Assembly (NCBI RefSeq): GCF_009914755.1
Contig: NC_060936.1
Direction: 5' to 3' (one strand)
Source of the DNA: the human T2T-CHM13v2.0 reference genome, Homo sapiens
Length of the DNA stretch: 64,000 bases
Both the position numbers and the translations under genes were made by a program. Positions 1,395 to 30,576 of this stretch are shown in pieces. The stretch's first letter is position 1. Each line of letters begins with the position of its first letter. Below the pieces are notes generated by a model. The model was not told where the DNA came from, did no database searches, and saw only the letters and a list, made by a program, of their open reading frames with translations.

Positions 1395-1700
1395 GTGTGT
1401 GAACATACATGTGGTCATGTGTGAATATGCATGTGGTCACCTGAGCACACATATGGTCGTATATTAACATGCATGTGGTCACATGTGAATGTGCATATGG
1501 TGGCATGTAAGATGCACATGGTCATGTGAACATGCATATGGCTGTGTGAATATACATATGGTCCTGTGAACATACATATAGTTGTGTGTGAACATGCACG
1601 TGGTTATGTGTGAACATGCATATGGTTGTGGGAACATAGATATGGTCATGTGAGAACATGCATGTGGTTTGTTTGACGCATGTGGTCATGTGATGTGAGC
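1395..1700. repeat. Degenerate ~20-bp minisatellite (tgtgaacatgcatgtggtca)
   Basis: Roughly 14 diverged units read directly. Confidence 0.8.
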
Positions 1701-21442: not shown

Positions 21443-21752
21443 CAGGGCATGGTTGCTCACACCTGTAATCCCAGCACTTCTGGAGGCCAAGGTGGGTGGA
21501 TCACTTGAGGGTCAGAGTTCAAGACCAGCCTGGCCAATATGGCAAAACTCTGACTCTACTAAAAATAGAAAAATTAGCCAGGTGTGGTGGTGCACGCCTC
21601 TAATCCCAGCTACTCAGGAGGCTGAGCCATAAGAATCCCTTGAACCCAGGAGGTGGAAGTTGCAGTGAGCTGAGATTGTGCCACTGTGCCACTGTACTGC
21701 AGCCTGGGTGACAAAGTAAGACTCTGTCTCAAAAACAAACCCAAAAAAGAAA
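21443..21752 (+). mobile_element. Alu in OVOS intron
   Basis: Full dimer with A-rich tail. Confidence 0.9.
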
Positions 21753-23406
21753 AAGAGTTCCCCAATTCACTGAGTTCTTAGCCCTGGAGCTCAAGCGATT
21801 TTTATTTAGAAATTCTAAAAAATATCTCCCAAACTAATTTTACTCAATGTTTTCCACATATTAACTAAGGCTAAAAGCCTTTAGCATCTATAAATCATGC
21901 TTGAATTCAAGAGGATCATTTTGTTTTTCTATTCTGAAAAGTAAAAATCTAAAATGTTACTCTTTACAGTTACAAAAGAAACATTTGTGGGCTTGCTACT
22001 ATATGACCATGCATGCTTGTCTTGAGAAAGAAATATAGAATCTCTGTTTTTCAAAACTAGGAGTACTTCCATACAACAGAATAAAAAGTATCATTGAAAC
22101 ATCAGTGCAGTGAAAGCTTTCAAATCCTGCTCACATAGACTGCATGTTTTCTTGCCTCATTTTAGCTCTGATTTAGCTGAAGATGTACTAAATTGTGGTG
22201 TCCGGACAGAGGGCTAAAAAGTGACTGTGCTGTAGAATTGTCACCACCAACATGAGAACTCATCATATTACCATGATTTATATTTTGTTATTTCACTACT
22301 GTTTGAACTTTTAAAATATTTTACCATCTTGTTCACATGGGAGTTACTGTCAAAATATGACACTTACTTGAGGGTCACTGTGAGGTCAAAAGCAGTCGAA
22401 GAGTAGTTCTTTACTATTTCCAAGGAAAGAGAAAATCCAGATGCCTTCTTAGGTAGGAGAACATTGTACTTAAGGGTGGCCTAGAAAGGATAGCAAATTA
22501 TAAGAAAACCCATCCTGTATTAAGAATTATACAGTCTGACTAGAGTCAGTAGTAATGTGATTTTACATTTTAAAATAACCAAGAGTATACTTCGATCATT
22601 GGTAACACAATGGATAAATGCTTGAGGTGAGCATACCCCACTTGCCCTGATGTGATTCTTACACGTTGCATGCCTGTATCATGCACCCGGTAAATATTTA
22701 CACCTACTATGTACCCACAAAAATTAAAACATTTTTAAAAAGAAAGAGCCTATTGTTTATTTCTATTACTAATGCAGTTTACATCTTTATCATCAGGGAA
22801 TCAGGTTAAATTCTTTAGTTTTCAGAATAATGTAATTTAATGAAGATAGAATACTTTCTAATAGCAATATTCCTCAAGAAACTTCTCTTAGACAGCTGAG
22901 TAGCTTTTCAAAAAGTAACTTGCAATTTTGGCTATTGATTATGTAAATACACAAAACGGTCAAATAACACTTCACGTAGAACTGAACAGACAGTCTGACT
23001 CTTTTACTGGCAAACACTCATCACCCTCTTAGGCAGATTTCTGTTACCTGGATAAATGTACAACCGTGTCCTTCCACATCTACTGTGTATTGTCCAGGTG
23101 CCTGTGTTACTTCTGAACGTTGGACCAGTAGGCGGTTATGACCGTTAACCTGGAAAATCTCACTGGATCCTTCACTGCTAAAGGTGACAGTGTTTTGATC
23201 CTTAGAGAAGAGCCCCTCTTCCCCCCCCTGGCTCTTAGGATCCCCATCGCAGGGCGGGGAGGCACCCACCGCGAGGCGGAGACTGAGAGCCAGCCCCTCT
23301 TCCCCCTCTGGCTCTTAGGATCCCCATCGTAAGGGGGGAAGACACCGCCCGCGAGCTGCTGACTGAGAGCCAGCCCCTCTTCCCCCCCTGGCTGAGGACC
23401 CCCACC

Positions 23407-23578
23407 GCGGATTCTAAGATCCTTAGCACCCACCTGGAGGACTGTGGGTTTTAGGTGTCCAAGAAGAAAGCTCAGATCTGCCGACGGCAGGTGCCTTACT
23501 TGGGATTTACTATCCGACAGGGGTCTGAACGCAGCTCGGGATCAGAAAAAAAGCAGGTCATTTGCAATGTACCGGAAC
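23407..23578 (+). mobile_element. Duplicated ~170-bp HERV pol fragment (copy 1) inside the satellite
   Basis: SKKKAQICRRQVPYLGFTIRQG; near-identical to the 27023 and 28024 copies. Confidence 0.9.
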
Positions 23579-24643
23579 CAGCCCCTCTTCCCCCCCTTGC
23601 TCTTAGGACACCCATCGCAGCGGGGCAGGCACACACCGCGAGGAGGGAACTGAGAGCCAGCCCCTCCCACCCCCGGCTCTTAGGACTCCCATTGCGGTGG
23701 GGGAGGCAAACCCGCGAGGCGGGGACTCAGAACCAGCCCCTCTTCCCCCACTGGCTCTTGGGACACCCTTCGCAAGGGGGGGAGGCACCCTCCGCAAGCT
23801 GCTGACTGAGAGCCAGCCCCTCTCCCCCACCCGGCTCTTCGGACCCCCATCGCAGTGGGAGGAGGTACACACCGCGAGGCGGGGACTGAGAGCCAGCCCC
23901 TCTTCCCCCACTGGCTTTTGGGACCCCCATTCCGGGGGGGAGGCACCCCCCGCGAGGCGGGGACTGAGAGCCAGCCCGTCTTCGCCCCCTGACTCTTAGG
24001 ACAGCCATCGCAGTGGAGGGAGGCACCCCCAGCGAGGCGGGGACTGAGAGCCAGCCCCTCTTCTCCCCTGGCTCTTAGGACCCCCATCGCAGTGAGGGAA
24101 TGCACCCCCCGCGAGGCAGAGACTGAGAGAAAGCCCCTCTTTCCCCCCTGGCTCTTAGGACCCCCATCGCAGTGGGAGGATGCACCACCCGTGAGGCGCG
24201 GCTCAGAGCCAGGCCCTCTTCCCCACCTGGCTCTTCGGACCCCCATCGCAGGTGGGGGAGGCACACCTCGCGAGGCGGGGACTGAGAGCCAGCCCCACTT
24301 CCACCCCTGGCTTTTAGGACCCCCGTCACAGGTGGGGGAGGCACCCCCAGCGAGGCGGGGACTGAGAGCCTGCCCCTCTTCCCCCCTCCAGGCTCTTCGG
24401 ACCCCCATCGCAGTGTGGGGAGGCACCCCCTGTGAGGCGGGGACTGAGAGCCAGCCGCTCTTTCCCCCTGGCTCTTAAGACCCCCATTGCAGGGGGGAAC
24501 ACACCCCCCGCGAGGCGGGGACTGAGAGCCAGCCCCTCTTGCCCCCCAGGCTCTTGGGACCCCCATCGCAGGGGGGAGGAGGCACCCCCCGCGAGGTGGG
24601 GACTGAGAGCCAGCCCCTCTCCCCCACGCGGCTCTTCGGACCC

Positions 24644-24880
24644 GCATCGCAAGGGGGGGAGGCATCGCAAGGGGGGGAGGCATCGCAAGGGGGGGAGGCA
24701 TCGCAAGGGGGGGAGGCATCGCAAGGGGGGGAGGCATCGCAAGGGGGGGAGGCATCGCAAGGGGGGGAGGCATCGCAAGGGGGGGAGGCATCGCAAGGGG
24801 GGGAGGCATCGCAAGGGGGGGAGGCATCGCAAGGGGGGGAGGCATCGCAAGGGGGGGAGGCATCGCAAGGGGGGGAGGCA
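24644..24880. repeat. Perfect 18-bp sub-array (GCATCGCAAGGGGGGGAG) x13
   Basis: Read directly; gives the MPPPLA / RHRKGG / EASQGG 6-aa periodicity. Confidence 0.95.
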
Positions 24881-25599
24881 CCCCATGCGAGGCGGGGACT
24901 GAGAACCAGCCCCTCTACCCCCCGTGGCTCTTAGGAGCCCGATCGCGGGTGAGGGAAGCACCCCCCGCGAGGCGGGGACTGAGAGCAAGCCCCTTTTCCC
25001 CCCCTGGCTCTTAGAACAACCAACGCAGAGGGGGGAGGCACCCGCTGTGAGGCATGAACTGAGAGCCAGACCCACTTCCCCCCAGCTCTTGGGATCCCCA
25101 TCACAGGGGGGGAGGCACCCCACATGAGGCGGGGACTGAGAGACAGCCCCTCTGCCCCTCCTGGCTATTAGGACCCCCGTCGCACGGGGGAGGGACCCCC
25201 CCATCGCACGGGGGGGAGGGACCCCCATCGCACGGGGGGGAGGGACCCCCCATCGCACGGGGGGGAGGGACCCCCCATCGCACGGGGGAGAGACACCCCC
25301 CGCGAGGCAGGGACGGAGAGCCTGCCGCTCTTCCCCCCGTGGCTCATAGGACCCCCATCGCAGGCGCTTGGCACCCCACGCGAGGCGGGTACTGAGAGCC
25401 AGCTCCTCTTCACCCCAGGTCTCTTAGGACTACCATCACAGGGGGGAAGAGGTACCCCATGCAAGGCGGGGACTGAGAGCCAGCCCCTCTTCACCTCTCG
25501 CTCTTAGGCCCCCATCGCGGGGGGGGAGGCACCCCATGCGAGGCGGGGATTGAGAGCCAGCCCCACTTCCCCCCTGACTCTTGGGACCACCATCGCAGT

Positions 25600-26345
25600 G
25601 GGGGCAGGTACACACCGCGAGGCGGGGGGGGGGGGGGGCAGGTACACACCGCGAGGCGGGGGGGGGGGGGGCAGGTACACACCGCGAGGCGGGGGGGGGG
25701 GCAGGTACACACCGCGAGGCGGGGGGGGGGCAGGTACACACCGCGAGGCGGGGGGGGGGGCAGGTACACACCGCGAGGCGGGGGGGGGCAGGTACACACC
25801 GCGAGGCGGGGGGGGGCAGGTACACACCGCGAGGCGGGGGGGGGGGGGCAGGTACACACCGCGAGGCGGGGGGGGGGGGCAGGTACACACCGCGAGGCGG
25901 GGGGGGGGGGGCAGGTACACACCGCGAGGCGGGGGGGGGGGGGGCAGGTACACACCGCGAGGCGGGGGGGGGGGGGCAGGTACACACCGCGAGGCGGGGG
26001 GGGGGGGGGCAGGTACACACCGCGAGGCGGGGGGGGGGGGGGCAGGTACACACCGCGAGGCGGGGGGGGGGGGGCAGGTACACACCGCGAGGCGGGGGGG
26101 GGGGGGGCAGGTACACACCGCGAGGCGGGGGGGGGGCAGGTACACACCGCGAGGCGGGGGGGGGGGGGCAGGTACACACCGCGAGGCGGGGGGGGGGGCA
26201 GGTACACACCGCGAGGCGGGGGGGGGGGGGCAGGTACACACCGCGAGGCGGGGGGGGGGGGGCAGGTACACACCGCGAGGCGGGGGGGGGGGCAGGTACA
26301 CACCGCGAGGCGGGGGGGGGGGGCAGGTACACACCGCGAGGCGGG
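25600..26345. repeat. ~30-bp sub-array CAGGTACACACCGCGAGGC(G)n, about 25 copies with variable poly-G tracts
   Basis: Read directly. Confidence 0.95.
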
Positions 26346-27022
26346 GACAGAGTGTCAGCCCCTCTTCCCCCACTGGCTTTTGGGACCCCCATCGCGATGG
26401 GGGGAGGCACCCCCAGCGAGGCGGGGACTGACAGCCAGCAACTCTTCTGCCCCGGGCTCTTGGGACCCCCATCGCAGGGGCGGGAGGCACCCCCCGCGAG
26501 CCAGGTTCTGAGAGCCAGCCCCTCTTCCCCTCTGGCTCTTAGAACCCCCATCGCAGTGGAGGGATGCACCCCCCGCGAGGCAGAGACTGAGAGAAAGCCC
26601 CTCTTTCCCCCTGGCTCTTGGGACCCCCATCGCAGGCGGGGGAGGCACCCCCCGCGAGGCGGGGACTGAGAGGCAGCCCCTCTTCCCCACCTGGCTCTTA
26701 GGTCCCCCATCGCGGGAGGGAAGCACCCCCCACGGGGCGGGGACTGAGAGCCAGCGCCTTTCCCCCCGGGGCTATTAGGACCCCCATCGCAGGAGGGTGA
26801 GACACACCCCAGAAGGCTGGGACTGAGAGCCAGCCCCTCTCCCCCCGCTGGCTATTAAGACACCCAACGCAGGGGGTGAGGCACCCCCTACGAGGCTGGG
26901 ACTGAGAGCCAGCCCCTCTTTCAACCTGGCTCTTAGGACCCCCATGGCAGGGGGGGAGGCATCCCCCACGAGGCGGGGACTGAGAGCCAGCCCCTCTTCC
27001 CCCTCTGGCTGAGGACCCCCAC

Positions 27023-27194
27023 CGCGGATTCTAAGATCCTTAGCACCCACCTGGAGGACTGTGGGTTTTAGGTGTCCAAGAAGAAAGCTCAGATCTTCCA
27101 GCAGAAGGTACCTTACTTGGGATTTACTATCCGACAGGGGTCTGAACGCAGCTCGGGATCAGAAAAAAAGCAGGTCATTTGCAATGTACCGGAG
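27023..27194 (+). mobile_element. Duplicated ~170-bp HERV pol fragment (copy 2) inside the satellite
   Basis: SKKKAQIFQQKVPYLGFTIRQG. Confidence 0.9.
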
Positions 27195-28023
27195 CCAGCC
27201 CCTCTTCCCCTCTGGCTCTTAGGACACCCATTGCTGGTGAGGGAGGCACCCCCCGCGAGGCAGGGACTGAGAGCCAGCCTCTCTTCCTCCCCTGGCTCTT
27301 AGGACCCCCATTGCGGGGGGGGGGAGGCACCCCACACGAGGCGGGGACTGAGAGCCAGCCCCTCTGCGCCCCCTGGCTATTAGGACCCCCATCACAGCGG
27401 GGAGAGGCACCCCCCGCGAGGCAGGGACGGAGAGCCTGCCCCTCTTCCCCCCGTGGCTCTTAGGACCCCCATCGCAGGCGCTTGGCACCCCACGCGAGGC
27501 AGGTACTGAGAGCCAGCTCCTCTTCCCCCCCGTGTCTTAGGACAGCCATCGCAGCGGGGGAGGTACCCCCCGTGAGGCAGGGACTGAGAGCCAGCCCCTC
27601 TTCACCTCTCGCTCTTCGGCCCCCATCGCAGGGAGGAGGAGGCACCCCATGCGAGGCGGGGACTGAGAGCCAGCCCCACTTCCCCCCTGGCTCTTGGGAC
27701 CACCATCGCAGTGGGGGGAGGTACACACCACGAGGCGGGGACGGAGAGTCAGCCCCTCTTCCCCCACTGGCTTTTGGGACACCCATCCCGGGGGGGAGGC
27801 CCCCCCCCCGCGAGGCGGGGACTGAGAGCCAGCCCGTCTTCGCCCCCTGACTCTTAGGACCCCCATCGCAGTGGGGGGATGCACCCCCCGCGAGGCAGAG
27901 ACTGAGAGAAAGCCCCTCTTTCCCCCCTGGCTCTTAGGACCCCCATCGCAGGCGGGGGAGGCACCCCCCGTGAGGCACGGACTGAGAGCCAGCCCCTCTT
28001 CCCCCACTGGCTAAGACCCCCAT

Positions 28024-28649
28024 TGCGGATCCTAAGATCCTTAGGACCCACCTGGAGGACTGTGGGTATTAGGTGTCCAAGAAGAAAGCTCAGATCTGCC
28101 GACGGCAGGTACCTTACTTGGGATTTTCTATACGACAGGGGTCCGAACGCAGCCCGGGATCAGAAAGAAAGCAGGTCGTTTGCAATCTACCGGAGCCTAA
28201 GGGCAGAAGGCAGGTTAGAGAATTCTTAGGAGCTGTGGGGTTTTGTAGACTGTGGATTCCAAACTTTGCAGTATTAGCCAAGCCTTTGTATGAGGTCACA
28301 AAGGGGGTGGGGACCGGAAAGCTTTCCAATGGGGATCCCAACAACAGGAAGGCTTTCATGAGTTAAAGGAAAAACTTCTGGCAGCCCCAGCCCTGGGGCT
28401 ACCCGATGTGACAAAGCCTTTTCCATTGTATGCTTCAGAGAGAGAAAAGATGGCAGCTGGACTTTTAACCCAAACTGTGGGGACCTGGCTGAGGCCAGTG
28501 GCCTACGTCTCTAAACAACTAGACAGGGTTTCTAAAAGATGGCCCCCCTGTTGGAGGGCCTTGGCAGCAACTACCCTGCTAGTACTAGAAGCAAATAAGC
28601 TGACTCTTGGGCAAAACCTGAACATAAAGGCCCCCCATGCTGTGGTGAC
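28024..28649 (+). mobile_element. Class I (gammaretrovirus-like) HERV pol fragment, RT thumb/connection region, frameshifted; probably HERV-T/S71
   Basis: SKKKAQICRRQVPYLGF, RQVREFLGAVGFCRLWIPNFA, TKPFPLY..RPVAYVSKQLD..WPPC..KLTLGQ..APHAV parallel MLV RT. Confidence 0.9.
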
Positions 28650-28689
28650 TGAGAGCCAGCCCCTCTTCCCCCCCTGGCTCTTAGGATCC

Positions 28690-29325
28690 ACGGTGGACTC
28701 ACAGCCTGTTTACCATATTGTGAGTAATATCATCTCCCCCTCTGGAGACCTCCGGAGATTATGAACTGTTTCACAGACGGGTGTACACCCTCAGTGTACA
28801 GAGGGCGTACACCCATCTGTATTGGGAGTAATATCATCCTCTTCCTCCCTGAATATTAAGAACAGTATCACAGGGGTGTTTCTACTCCCTGCGATATCGC
28901 GTGTCATATCCTCCTCTCCCACCTTGCAATTAGAAACAATATCAGTGGGGGCGTGTCCACCTTCTGTCATATTGAAAGTAATATCATTTTCTTCCCTCCA
29001 GGACCGTGGGAACAATATGCCAGGGGGATTTCCACTTTCTGCCATATATGTAGTCACATCACCCACTCTGCCTTGGAATATTATTAAGGACCATCTAACA
29101 CGAGGGTGTATACGTCCTGCAATACTACGAGTAATATCAACTTCTTGGCCTCTGAATATGAGGAAGAATATCACAGGGTGGGTGTACACCTCGTGCTCTA
29201 TTATGCGGAGTCATATCTGTCTATTATGGGGAGTAATATCATTCTCTCCCTTTCAGGATATTAATAACAATTTCACAGGCTGGGTGAACACAGCCGGCAA
29301 TGCTGAAATTATTATCAACCTCTCC
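28690..29325. repeat. AT-rich SATR1/SATR2-type satellite
   Basis: Recurrent gggtgtacaccc, gggagtaatatcat and aatatcacaggg motifs at roughly 75-bp spacing. Confidence 0.8.
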
Positions 29326-29414
29326 CCATCTTCCCCTCCTGGCTCTTAGGACCCCCATCGCAGGGGGCTGAGGCACCCCCCGCGAGGCGGGGACTGAGTG
29401 CCAGCCCCTCTTCC

Positions 29415-29538
29415 CTAGCCCCTTCGTCAGGGCTGAGAGAATTTTGAGCGCTAGCCGTCTCTCGATCGCTGGCTAATAAAGAACTCCTGAATTAGTCTCA
29501 AAGTGTAGCGTTCCTCTATTACCCGCTTGGTTACAACA
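29415..29538 (+). mobile_element. 3' end (R/U5) of an ERV1 LTR, LTR6-like (HERV-T/S71)
   Basis: AATAAA at 29475-29480; ends ...ggttacaaCA; no primer-binding site follows; family assigned from memory. Confidence 0.7.
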
Positions 29539-30576
29539 GCTTTATATTAATAATTGTAGTAATAAAGTTGATCGCACATAGGATGGAGGAGGCACCTGCC
29601 TGGTGAGATGAGACAATGGTCGGATTCACTGAGGCTCCTGCGTGTCCCGGATTTCCCGCTGGGGGAGGGTGTTCTGCTCAGCGGTTCCCACACCTGCTTC
29701 CATGGGAGAAGCAAGAAGAAGTCAGAAGGGTGGGCGAAGGAGTCAGAAGCTTCTATTATTGGTTCGGGGAGATGCTGTGTCGGGGGCATCAATTATATGG
29801 GGAACCAACCAGTTGCCAACTCCTGACCCTTGGAGTTGACCCCACACCGCTTAAACCTCTGCGCTGGTTCCCGGGGGCCCACAGTGAGGTCTGTAACTCG
29901 GGGAGAGGCGCTGGAGCGGGGTGTGGGAGAATGGTGTGCAGGACGGGCTCCATGCACTTTGAAATTATAAACTGCCTTATGAGACAGGGGTACGGTGTGT
30001 GTGCATTTTCCTGGGAGAGTCCATAGTTTTTACCACATTGTGTAAAGCTATGCTGTGCAGTAGAAATATTACGCCATACACAATACATATGTACAGTTTT
30101 AGTTGTCAAAGAAACTGAAAGAAGATCTTGATGAACACGGATGGCATAGATGTGAGGAAAGCACCATTATTAAAGAATATTTATGCATTTATGTAATGCA
30201 TTAAAAGGTAACAAAATGGATAAGCAGGTAACACAATAGCAAAGACCTAGAGTCAATTGCAGTCATCCACTGGGGAACTGAGGAGTCAGGGTTTCTCATT
30301 ACAAAACTCTCTGATGGAAGACTATTACTTATCAACTATTTATTGTCTTTCCACTAAACAAGAAGTGATCGTCATCTTTTCAGATGAGCACCACAGACTT
30401 TGCAAAAGATAATTGCCAATTACCCTTTGTACCTGGATTTTCTCATTCCTAAAAATAGTACTACATGACTCCAAAGTTTGTTGTGAAGTTAATTGGGGTG
30501 GTGTATCCTAAAGTAACAAAAATGTTGACCATACAGGAGGGGGTGGTTAGTGTTAAGACTCTCTGTTTTTCTGTCT

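What the first reader, a model, noticed from the sequence alone, without database searches (positions are those of the whole stretch)
23210..29400. GC-rich satellite looks like a base-by-base GC-shifted descendant of the adjacent AT-rich SATR block
Seen: the two repeats align in register. AT form ggatatta..aacaatatcacagggtgggtgtacacc..gcgat..gggagtaatatcatcctcttcctccct; GC form ggctcttaggacccccatcgcagggggggaggcacc..gcgaggcggggactgagagccagcccctcttccccccct. Nearly all differences are A/T to G/C, and intermediates survive (ggctattagga, catcacagggg, ggtacacacc). Inference: strong directional substitution, such as GC-biased gene conversion in a recombining array, turned an AT-rich satellite into a CpG-island-like one, with ancestor and descendant side by side.
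Basis: partly seen in the sequence, partly recalled or inferred. Interest (0 to 1): 0.7.

Follow-up and report, generated by a model that had tools for sequence, protein, structure and literature searches.

The report
Satellite repeat climbing a GC ladder
This human repeat is a GC-rich relative of the AT-rich SATR satellite beside it, and copies scattered over the genome preserve graded in-between forms that keep a predicted hairpin, likely recording millions of years of GC-favouring copying in a source array elsewhere rather than a change that happened here.

Summary
The homology is real. The 79-bp GC unit aligns to the 76-bp AT-rich SATR unit with 52 identities, 21 A/T-to-G/C and 2 reverse differences (score 73 against 24.8±4.4; 0 of 5000 shuffles). 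The local story fails. GC units sit at 32 or more places on 8 chromosomes. The window holds a mobile composite (GC array, 0.6-kb retroviral pol piece, frozen 640-bp SATR block) that is now losing GC, and its in-window 'intermediates' are at background level. True intermediates lie at other loci: eight graded classes, 51 to 76% GC, nested in the monomer tree. The most AT-like units lie beside the oldest block copies. The unit is a quasi-palindrome: Watson-Crick pairs stay at 15-17 of 22 while G-C pairs rise from 4 to 12. It is probably the catalogued SATR1 variant SATR1v (not tested by sequence). Ten literature searches did not find the ladder or the paired changes. Best guess at mechanism: GC-biased conversion with arm-to-arm copying in a homogenising source array (0.5).

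The parts
23211..23408 (+). First GC-rich ~79-bp units (class F, probable SATR1v); left end of the composite, in an intron of the OVOS-like LOC728715 model
   Evidence: left junction shared with the chr12:30.99 paralogue
23407..23579 (+). Junction plus truncated (149-bp) retroviral pol piece
23575..27025 (+). Main GC-unit array, interrupted by three G-rich sub-arrays
24644..24880 (+). 18-bp sub-array, 13.2 copies, 100% matches, cut from the G-run of a unit; likely recent
25174..25301 (+). 25-bp sub-array, 5.2 copies, 91% matches
25600..26346 (+). 32-bp sub-array with variable poly-G, 23.9 copies, 95% matches
27024..27196 (+). Second junction plus truncated pol piece
27192..28026 (+). GC-unit array, about 10 units
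28025..28640 (+). 24-bp junction with a 7-bp inverted repeat, then a ~590-bp retroviral pol fragment (RT/RNase H region), 92-95% identical to copies at DA/Xiao loci
   Evidence: Pfam PF17919 E 5.6e-15; HERV-E label from PMC2700803 by co-location
28647..28689 (+). GC half-unit running into the junction monomer
28690..29335 (+). Frozen AT-rich SATR block (~8 diverged monomers, 45% GC), conserved as a block at dozens of loci
29325..29411 (+). Last single GC unit; right end of the composite
29415..29539 (+). 3' end of a dispersed LTR-like repeat (LTR2/HERV-E type recalled); belongs to the neighbouring duplicated segment, not to the composite
   Evidence: 40 of 40 scored matches; 98% match with its flank at C12:9305541-9305686; absent from the other composite loci scanned

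Best explanation
The array is a dispersed copy of the likely latest class in a graded series of SATR satellite units that run from 51% to 76% GC, and the shift likely happened in a long-lived source array elsewhere through GC-biased gene conversion between tandem units, with changes likely copied from one arm of the unit's predicted hairpin to the other. Shown: homology; 21:2 W>S bias; eight classes at different loci; nesting of the classes in the monomer tree; composite structure; present-day decay; stem pairing kept across class consensuses. Inferred: (1) AT-to-GC direction, from branch lengths and closeness to generic SATR. (2) A single source lineage that shed copies at successive stages, like an Alu/L1 master gene. 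(3) Conversion bias as the cause: one unit upstream of a fixed SATR block became the homogenising, length-variable part, mismatches between units and between arms were repaired toward G/C, and the neighbouring block caught weaker spill-over. (4) The last class captured a pol piece from a SATR-HERVE-SATR flank of a Xiao element and spread by DNA-level insertion (no poly-A tail, LTR or fixed ends), perhaps from circular concatemers. Once dispersed, copies likely left the drive and now decay.
For: W>S 21 vs S>W 2. Summed over seven steps: 24 W>S, 5 S>W, 7 S>S, 1 W>W, P 5e-4; a side branch adds 7 W>S and 0 S>W. Monomer tree of 92 natural units is a comb A-A1-A2-B-C-D-E-F, with F on one branch (94/86). 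Block tree of 35 copies: those beside AT-like units mostly have long tips (0.08-0.10; one 0.04), within-group distance 0.171 and mostly higher scores to generic SATR; window-type copies have tips 0.014-0.036 and distance 0.064. Frozen block, old vs young groups: 11 W/S vs 1 S/W in 320 columns; two of these break the block's own palindrome centre, which fits a base bias better than hairpin selection. Stem pairs 15-17 of 22 in every class, G-C pairs 4 to 12, permutation P 0.005-0.047. In 65 natural units, 56 cells changed on both sides vs 26.8±3.9 shuffled, and all six slid controls were lower. In macaque the GC variant is 81% GC and SATR arrays are ~99-fold enriched at subtelomeres (10.1101/2025.08.04.668424); that subtelomeres recombine more is recalled.
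Against: 12 of 21 W>S changes are transversions; against an expected 70-75% transitions (recalled) P is 0.002-0.009, only partly eased by counting paired changes once. Long SATR arrays elsewhere stay ~44-45% GC. No compensation is detectable inside class F (17 vs 17.3) or the first A set (25 vs 28.4). Number of pairs with double changes and pair types were not above shuffles (69 and 101 of 500), and related units inflate the cell counts. RNAalifold found only 3 consensus pairs. The last step (E to F) weakens the hairpin (-28.3 to -23.9 kcal/mol). Divergence from class consensus is not monotonic with GC (rho -0.05); only A is clearly older. One side class (chr14) shows 5-7 W>S vs 5 S>W. No PRDM9-type 13-mer (motif recalled) in the array. 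In Arabidopsis centromeres non-allelic conversion needed no GC bias. Roots are assumed: no outgroup species was available, and the AT outgroup was not one side of a branch. Classes A1, A2, B and S14 were picked partly by motif (n 28, 14, 7, 6).
Confidence: 0.5

Rival explanations
1. Structure-driven amplification: units with a more stable hairpin or longer G/C runs were copied more often (slippage, circle formation, break repair), so GC-rich variants won without any repair bias.
For: Predicted hairpin energy deepens from -15.5 (A) to -28.3 (E) and z from -2.4 to -5.8. Compensated double changes include S-to-S swaps (pairs 9/54 and 19/44). Transversion excess. The three sub-arrays are cut from G-runs.
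Against: Class F, the most amplified class in the fetched loci, is less stable than E. The frozen block shows 11:1 W/S including palindrome-breaking changes. The run-extension test was not significant (9 vs 7.1 expected, P 0.23).
Confidence: 0.27
2. Selection on the source element, for example escape from a sequence-specific repressor or gain of transcription, drove the changes; GC gain is a by-product.
For: The central TGTACA motif is lost in the units and twice in the block, and CGAT becomes CCAT/TCAT three times in the block. ZNF141 is reported enriched on SATR1 (PMC10547255, passage). RefSeq models start or splice inside the composite (hub table).
Against: Does not predict a 21:2 base bias or arm-symmetric changes; no binding data tested.
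Confidence: 0.1
3. Reverse direction: the GC unit is ancestral and the AT-rich SATR decayed from it.
For: Mutation is AT-biased and F monomers are decaying; both forms exist in macaque, so neither is dated by that; tree roots are assumed.
Against: F-linked block copies are the least diverged and carry a derived pol insert; A monomers are the most diverged (0.16-0.17 vs 0.07-0.13). CpG decay cannot give 12 transversion differences.
Confidence: 0.07
4. One reading: this array was converted in place from the adjacent AT block.
For: Adjacency and homology.
Against: The same unit is at 14 multi-kb arrays; window monomers match other loci better than their own array (0.912 vs 0.893); no excess of ancestral bases and S>W exceeds W>S; embedded pol pieces are not GC-shifted.
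Confidence: 0.03

Closest known systems
SATR1v, GC-rich variant of SATR1 (Hoyt et al. 2022 as cited by, and described in, Zhang et al. 10.1101/2025.08.04.668424)
   Same: GC-rich, length-variable array abutting a conserved SATR1 block; present in human at low amounts (macaque 4.48 Mb is ~36-fold more; I tiled 49.6 kb in the first 40 fetched stretches plus the window).
   Different: Macaque 81% GC, subtelomeric, 589-bp block; here 70%, interstitial, ~640-bp block plus pol piece. Neither text I read gives a sequence, derivation, substitution bias or hairpin.
SES flank (SATR-HERVE-SATR) of DA/Xiao composite duplicons (Li et al. 2009, PMC2700803; also PMC5088589)
   Same: Block, class-E units and pol piece map to many listed DA/Xiao positions (2p-71, 2q-159, 3p-8, 3p-75, 4p-4/9, 8p-7/11, 11q-67/71, 12p-8, 13q-40/67; matched by approximate Mb across assemblies). 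At chr3:8.67 the composite sits inside a continuous pol.
   Different: This locus is not in their table; it has only a 0.6-kb pol piece, tandemly interleaved with GC units, and no flanking HERV-E pair in the stretch examined.
GC-biased gene conversion in concertedly evolving arrays and palindromes (histone genes, rDNA, Y palindromes; recalled, not read)
   Same: W>S excess in homogenised repeats, fading in flanks.
   Different: Here arms are ~30 bp inside one monomer, transversions are in excess, and dated-looking intermediates are scattered over the genome.
Template-switch maintenance of hairpins (Monttinen and Loytynoja 2022, PMC8794818)
   Same: Compensatory changes by copying one arm onto the other.
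   Different: Described for RNA genes under selection; the terms 'GC content' and 'GC-biased' do not occur in its main text.

Membership tests
SATR1v | Sequence match to the Dfam/T2T SATR1v consensus | not testable with these tools
   No consensus in the texts read; supplements not available; Science version not held
SATR1v | GC-rich variant homologous to SATR1 | tested here: met
   Homology and 70% GC monomers vs 45%; lower than macaque's 81%
SATR1v | Occurs in mixed arrays beside a conserved SATR1 block | tested here: met
   Window and most loci; seven chr7/chr13 arrays show no block in the 10 kb fetched
SATR1v | Core order: GC array, 589-bp SATR1, AT-rich spacer, 191-bp opposite-strand SATR1 | tested here: inconclusive
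   Same order at chr4/chr11 loci but ~880, ~400 and ~730 bp; the window has only the first ~640 bp
SATR1/SATR2 (AT block) | Satellite flanking HERV-E at DA/Xiao loci | tested here: met
   Block hits co-locate with Table 1 loci of PMC2700803; SATR1 vs SATR2 not distinguished
Xiao/DA element | Core flanked by two SATR-HERVE-SATR direct repeats | tested here: not met
   One composite with pol fragments only; neighbours are OVOS-like and DDX12P-side sequence
Xiao/DA element | Target-site duplication | tested here: inconclusive
   None evident by eye in the flanks of 14 stretches; the window's right end is a duplication junction
CpG island | GC above 50% and CpG o/e at least 0.6 (recalled) | tested here: not met
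   GC 0.70, o/e 0.46
Known structured RNA family | Rfam match at gathering score | tested here: not met
   0 matches in 23000-29700
gBGC-shaped sequence | Transmission bias toward G/C at heteroduplexes | not testable with these tools
   Needs pedigree or population data

The most novel reading that the evidence does not exclude
SATR holds a single mobile master lineage in which a ~60-bp intra-monomer palindrome drives its own GC gain: a change on one arm is copied to the other with a G/C bias. The lineage shed dispersed snapshots for 25 million years or more, so the human genome carries an eight-step fossil series of hairpin-templated GC drive, ending in a satellite-retroviral composite that spreads as DNA circles.
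Probability: 0.3. Interest if true: 0.75.

Novelty: new variant of a known kind. Interest (0 to 1): 0.52.

Why it matters
Direct stepwise records of directional base change in a satellite are rare because arrays erase their history. Here 57% of the unit's A/T sites (21 of 37) switched, and the steps survive at separate loci. That makes it possible to test whether non-allelic or arm-to-arm conversion is GC-biased in mammals, above all in macaque, where megabases of the GC variant exist. The units also sit at DA/Xiao flanks linked to 8p23 rearrangements (PMC5088589), and this composite ends at a duplication junction.

Tried and rejected
In-window intermediates as relics: rejected. Regional GC bias at present loci: rejected, pol copies 50.9% (34 inside) vs 51.4% (14 outside). 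CpG island: not met. Run-extension mutagenesis: P 0.23; left/right C-G asymmetry P 0.13. PRDM9 13-mer: none in the array. Rfam: none. Retrotransposition: no poly-A or LTR at composite ends in the flanks read. First pooled alignment mis-registered the right arm and was replaced by pairwise class alignments. Distance-to-window vs unit stage was not significant (rho -0.11) and was confounded because the seven young copies have a pol piece in the scored slot. Two chr9:77.06 block copies with internal deletions were dropped from the tree (37 to 35). RNAalifold gave no hairpin consensus. Per-branch substitution counts on the block tree were not obtained, so when the block's changes arose is open. 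Searches for prior description: SATR1+SATR2+satellite, SATR1v, Hoyt+SATR, gBGC+satellite+palindrome+tandem repeat+hairpin (52, 0 papers), SATR1+GC-rich+variant, OVOS2/DDX12P, quasi-palindrome+template switch+GC-biased (68, 0 papers), concerted evolution+gBGC+satellite, template switch+hairpin, SATR1+KRAB. No title, abstract or passage that I saw describes the ladder; most listed papers were seen only as listings, and the library lacks most subscription papers and Dfam.
Full report
Observation. The window holds an ~80-bp tandem array from 23211 to 28026 at 70% GC, broken by three G-rich sub-arrays (18, 25 and 32 bp) and two 149-bp pieces of a retroviral pol gene. It is followed by a ~590-bp pol piece, a GC half-unit, a 45%-GC block of about eight diverged monomers (28690-29335) and one more GC unit. 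The pol piece matches Pfam RT_RNaseH_2 (E 5.6e-15; 1 of 2 stretches scanned had a hit). The majority sequence of 398 GC monomers aligns with that of 298 AT monomers at 52 identical columns, 21 W>S, 2 S>W, 1 S>S and 3 indel columns; 0 of 5000 shuffles reach the score.

Not local. A search of the genome with 1073 bases of the array gave 109 matches (40 of 120 candidates scored), which I group into 32 places on 8 chromosomes, 14 of them multi-kilobase arrays. The AT block and the pol piece recur at many of the same places in the same order, with ends falling anywhere in the composite and no poly-A or LTR in the flanks read. The LTR end at 29415-29539 belongs to the neighbouring duplicated segment. 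Window monomers match monomers at other loci slightly better than their own neighbours (0.912 vs 0.893). The AT-form base at diagnostic non-CpG sites is no commoner (0.024-0.028) than ordinary decay (0.038-0.041), and new variants run S>W 0.037, CpG 0.15, W>S 0.021 per allele. Pol copies inside arrays are 50.9% GC (34 copies) against 51.4% outside (14). So the 'intermediates' in the window are back-mutations, and the array is decaying.

The real intermediates. Searching with less GC-rich units and fetching 38 short stretches revealed graded classes: generic SATR A (51% consensus GC), A1 56%, A2 60%, B 60%, C 65%, D 68%, E 71%, F 76%, with side branches. Over the seven steps there are 24 W>S and 5 S>W (P 5e-4); small classes add noise, and A1, A2, B and S14 were chosen partly by motif. 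A tree of 92 natural monomers is a comb in that order, F on one branch (94/86), but with only 79 columns and an outgroup that is not one clean side. Independently, a tree of the first 430 bases of the block (35 of 37 copies) puts copies next to AT-like units on mostly long tips and those of the window type on short ones; within-group distances are 0.171 (5 old), 0.107 (23 middle) and 0.064 (7 young), and old copies mostly score closer to generic SATR (rho -0.45, P 0.007). At chr22 and chr5 the same block lies inside a plain AT array. Direction AT to GC is therefore likely (about 0.9), though divergence from consensus separates only A from the rest and no outgroup species was available.

A hairpin that is kept. 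The monomer is a quasi-palindrome with a pyrimidine spacer. Across class consensuses Watson-Crick pairs stay at 15-17 of 22 while G-C pairs rise from 4 to 12. Pairs 3/60, 5/58, 14/49 and 16/47 change on both sides, and mismatches 9/54, 12/51 and 20/43 become pairs; pairs 7/56, 15/48, 17/46 and 22/41 are lost. Random placement of the same changes keeps as many pairs with P 0.005-0.007; with positions fixed, P is 0.043-0.047. On 65 natural units 56 cells changed on both sides vs 26.8±3.9 shuffled, but counts of pairs and pair types were not above shuffles, and RNAalifold found no such consensus. Within class F there is no compensation (17 vs 17.3), so the effect belongs to the source lineage, not to dispersed copies.

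Mechanism. I favour GC-biased conversion in a homogenising source array with arm-to-arm copying (0.5). The bias is strongest in the tandem units (21 of 37 W sites), weaker in the adjoining frozen block (11 W/S vs 1 S/W; 190 W columns), where two changes break the palindrome centre, and absent from the late-captured pol piece. Against it stand the transversion excess (12 of 21), pure SATR arrays that stay near 45% GC, and a plant study in which unit-to-unit conversion needed no GC bias. Preferential amplification of stabler hairpins (0.27) explains the transversions and the rising stability up to E but not the weaker hairpin of F. Repressor escape (0.1), reverse direction (0.07) and local conversion (0.03) follow. 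Class F likely arose at a Xiao flank: its block clade is nearest to copies at chr9:102.9 and chr2:71.05 (weak support), its best outside pol match is chr9:102.39 (95%), and at chr3:8.67 the composite lies within a pol that continues on both sides, as expected if a circle recombined in or if the composite formed there.

What is known. Li et al. 2009 (PMC2700803; parts 1-3 of 4 read) define SATR-HERVE-SATR flanks of DA/Xiao and date them to 25-7 Myr. PMC5088589 (passages) places 8p23 breakpoints in them. The macaque T2T preprint (10.1101/2025.08.04.668424; whole main text; PMC copy passages) describes SATR1v: 81% GC, beside 44%-GC SATR1, ~36-fold more than in apes, citing Hoyt 2022, whose preprint (passages) lists a SATR1 variant. 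Their supplements, unseen, may hold the consensus and more. PMC8794818, PMC10547255, PMC12637528 and 10.1101/2025.06.02.657473 were seen as passages only. The unit is probably SATR1v (about 0.8), so the repeat itself is known. The ladder, the paired changes and the pol composite did not appear in what I saw from ten searches.

Verdict. Interest 0.52.

Noticed in passing
window 28052-28158 and 27051-27141 (- strand): The first two exons of the RefSeq OVOS-like model LOC728715 lie inside pol pieces of the composite, antisense to pol, so this transcript is modelled as starting within the satellite-retroviral composite; LOC124906979 exons also fall in it.
   Followed up: no
window 21516-29325 vs L009 (chr12:30.99 paralogue): Flank differs by 1.6%, AT block by 3.1%, collinear GC units by 13.7%; the arrays were rearranged or mutated much faster than their flanks after duplication, or the paired units are not true orthologues.
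   Followed up: partly
window 29411-29560: The last GC unit abuts an LTR end whose flank matches C12:9305541-9305686 at 98%: the composite marks a junction between duplicated segments.
   Followed up: partly
window 28025-28048 and 28686-28696: Both composite junctions carry short fold-back inverted repeats (7 bp with a 3-base loop; 5 bp with a 1-base loop), as template switches would leave (sequence); chance not tested.
   Followed up: no
L011:1843-8761 (chr3:8.67): Three composite repeats are nested in a pol gene that continues on both sides, with the ~600-bp piece duplicated at each join.
   Followed up: partly
L018:1700-2570; L015 and L016 flanks (chr13): Class F arrays here sit beside a more distant ~71-bp AT-rich SATR-like satellite, at L018 with side-branch GC units between.
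   Followed up: no
L071 (chr14:16.91): A side class with a C-G to G-C swap on both arms and no net GC bias against class B.
   Followed up: partly
window 25600-26346: 32-bp sub-array with poly-G runs of varying length: may be a real unstable VNTR, or carry homopolymer-length assembly errors.
   Followed up: no
window 1395-1669: Degenerate ~21-bp purine-pyrimidine alternating tandem repeat, unrelated to the finding.
   Followed up: no
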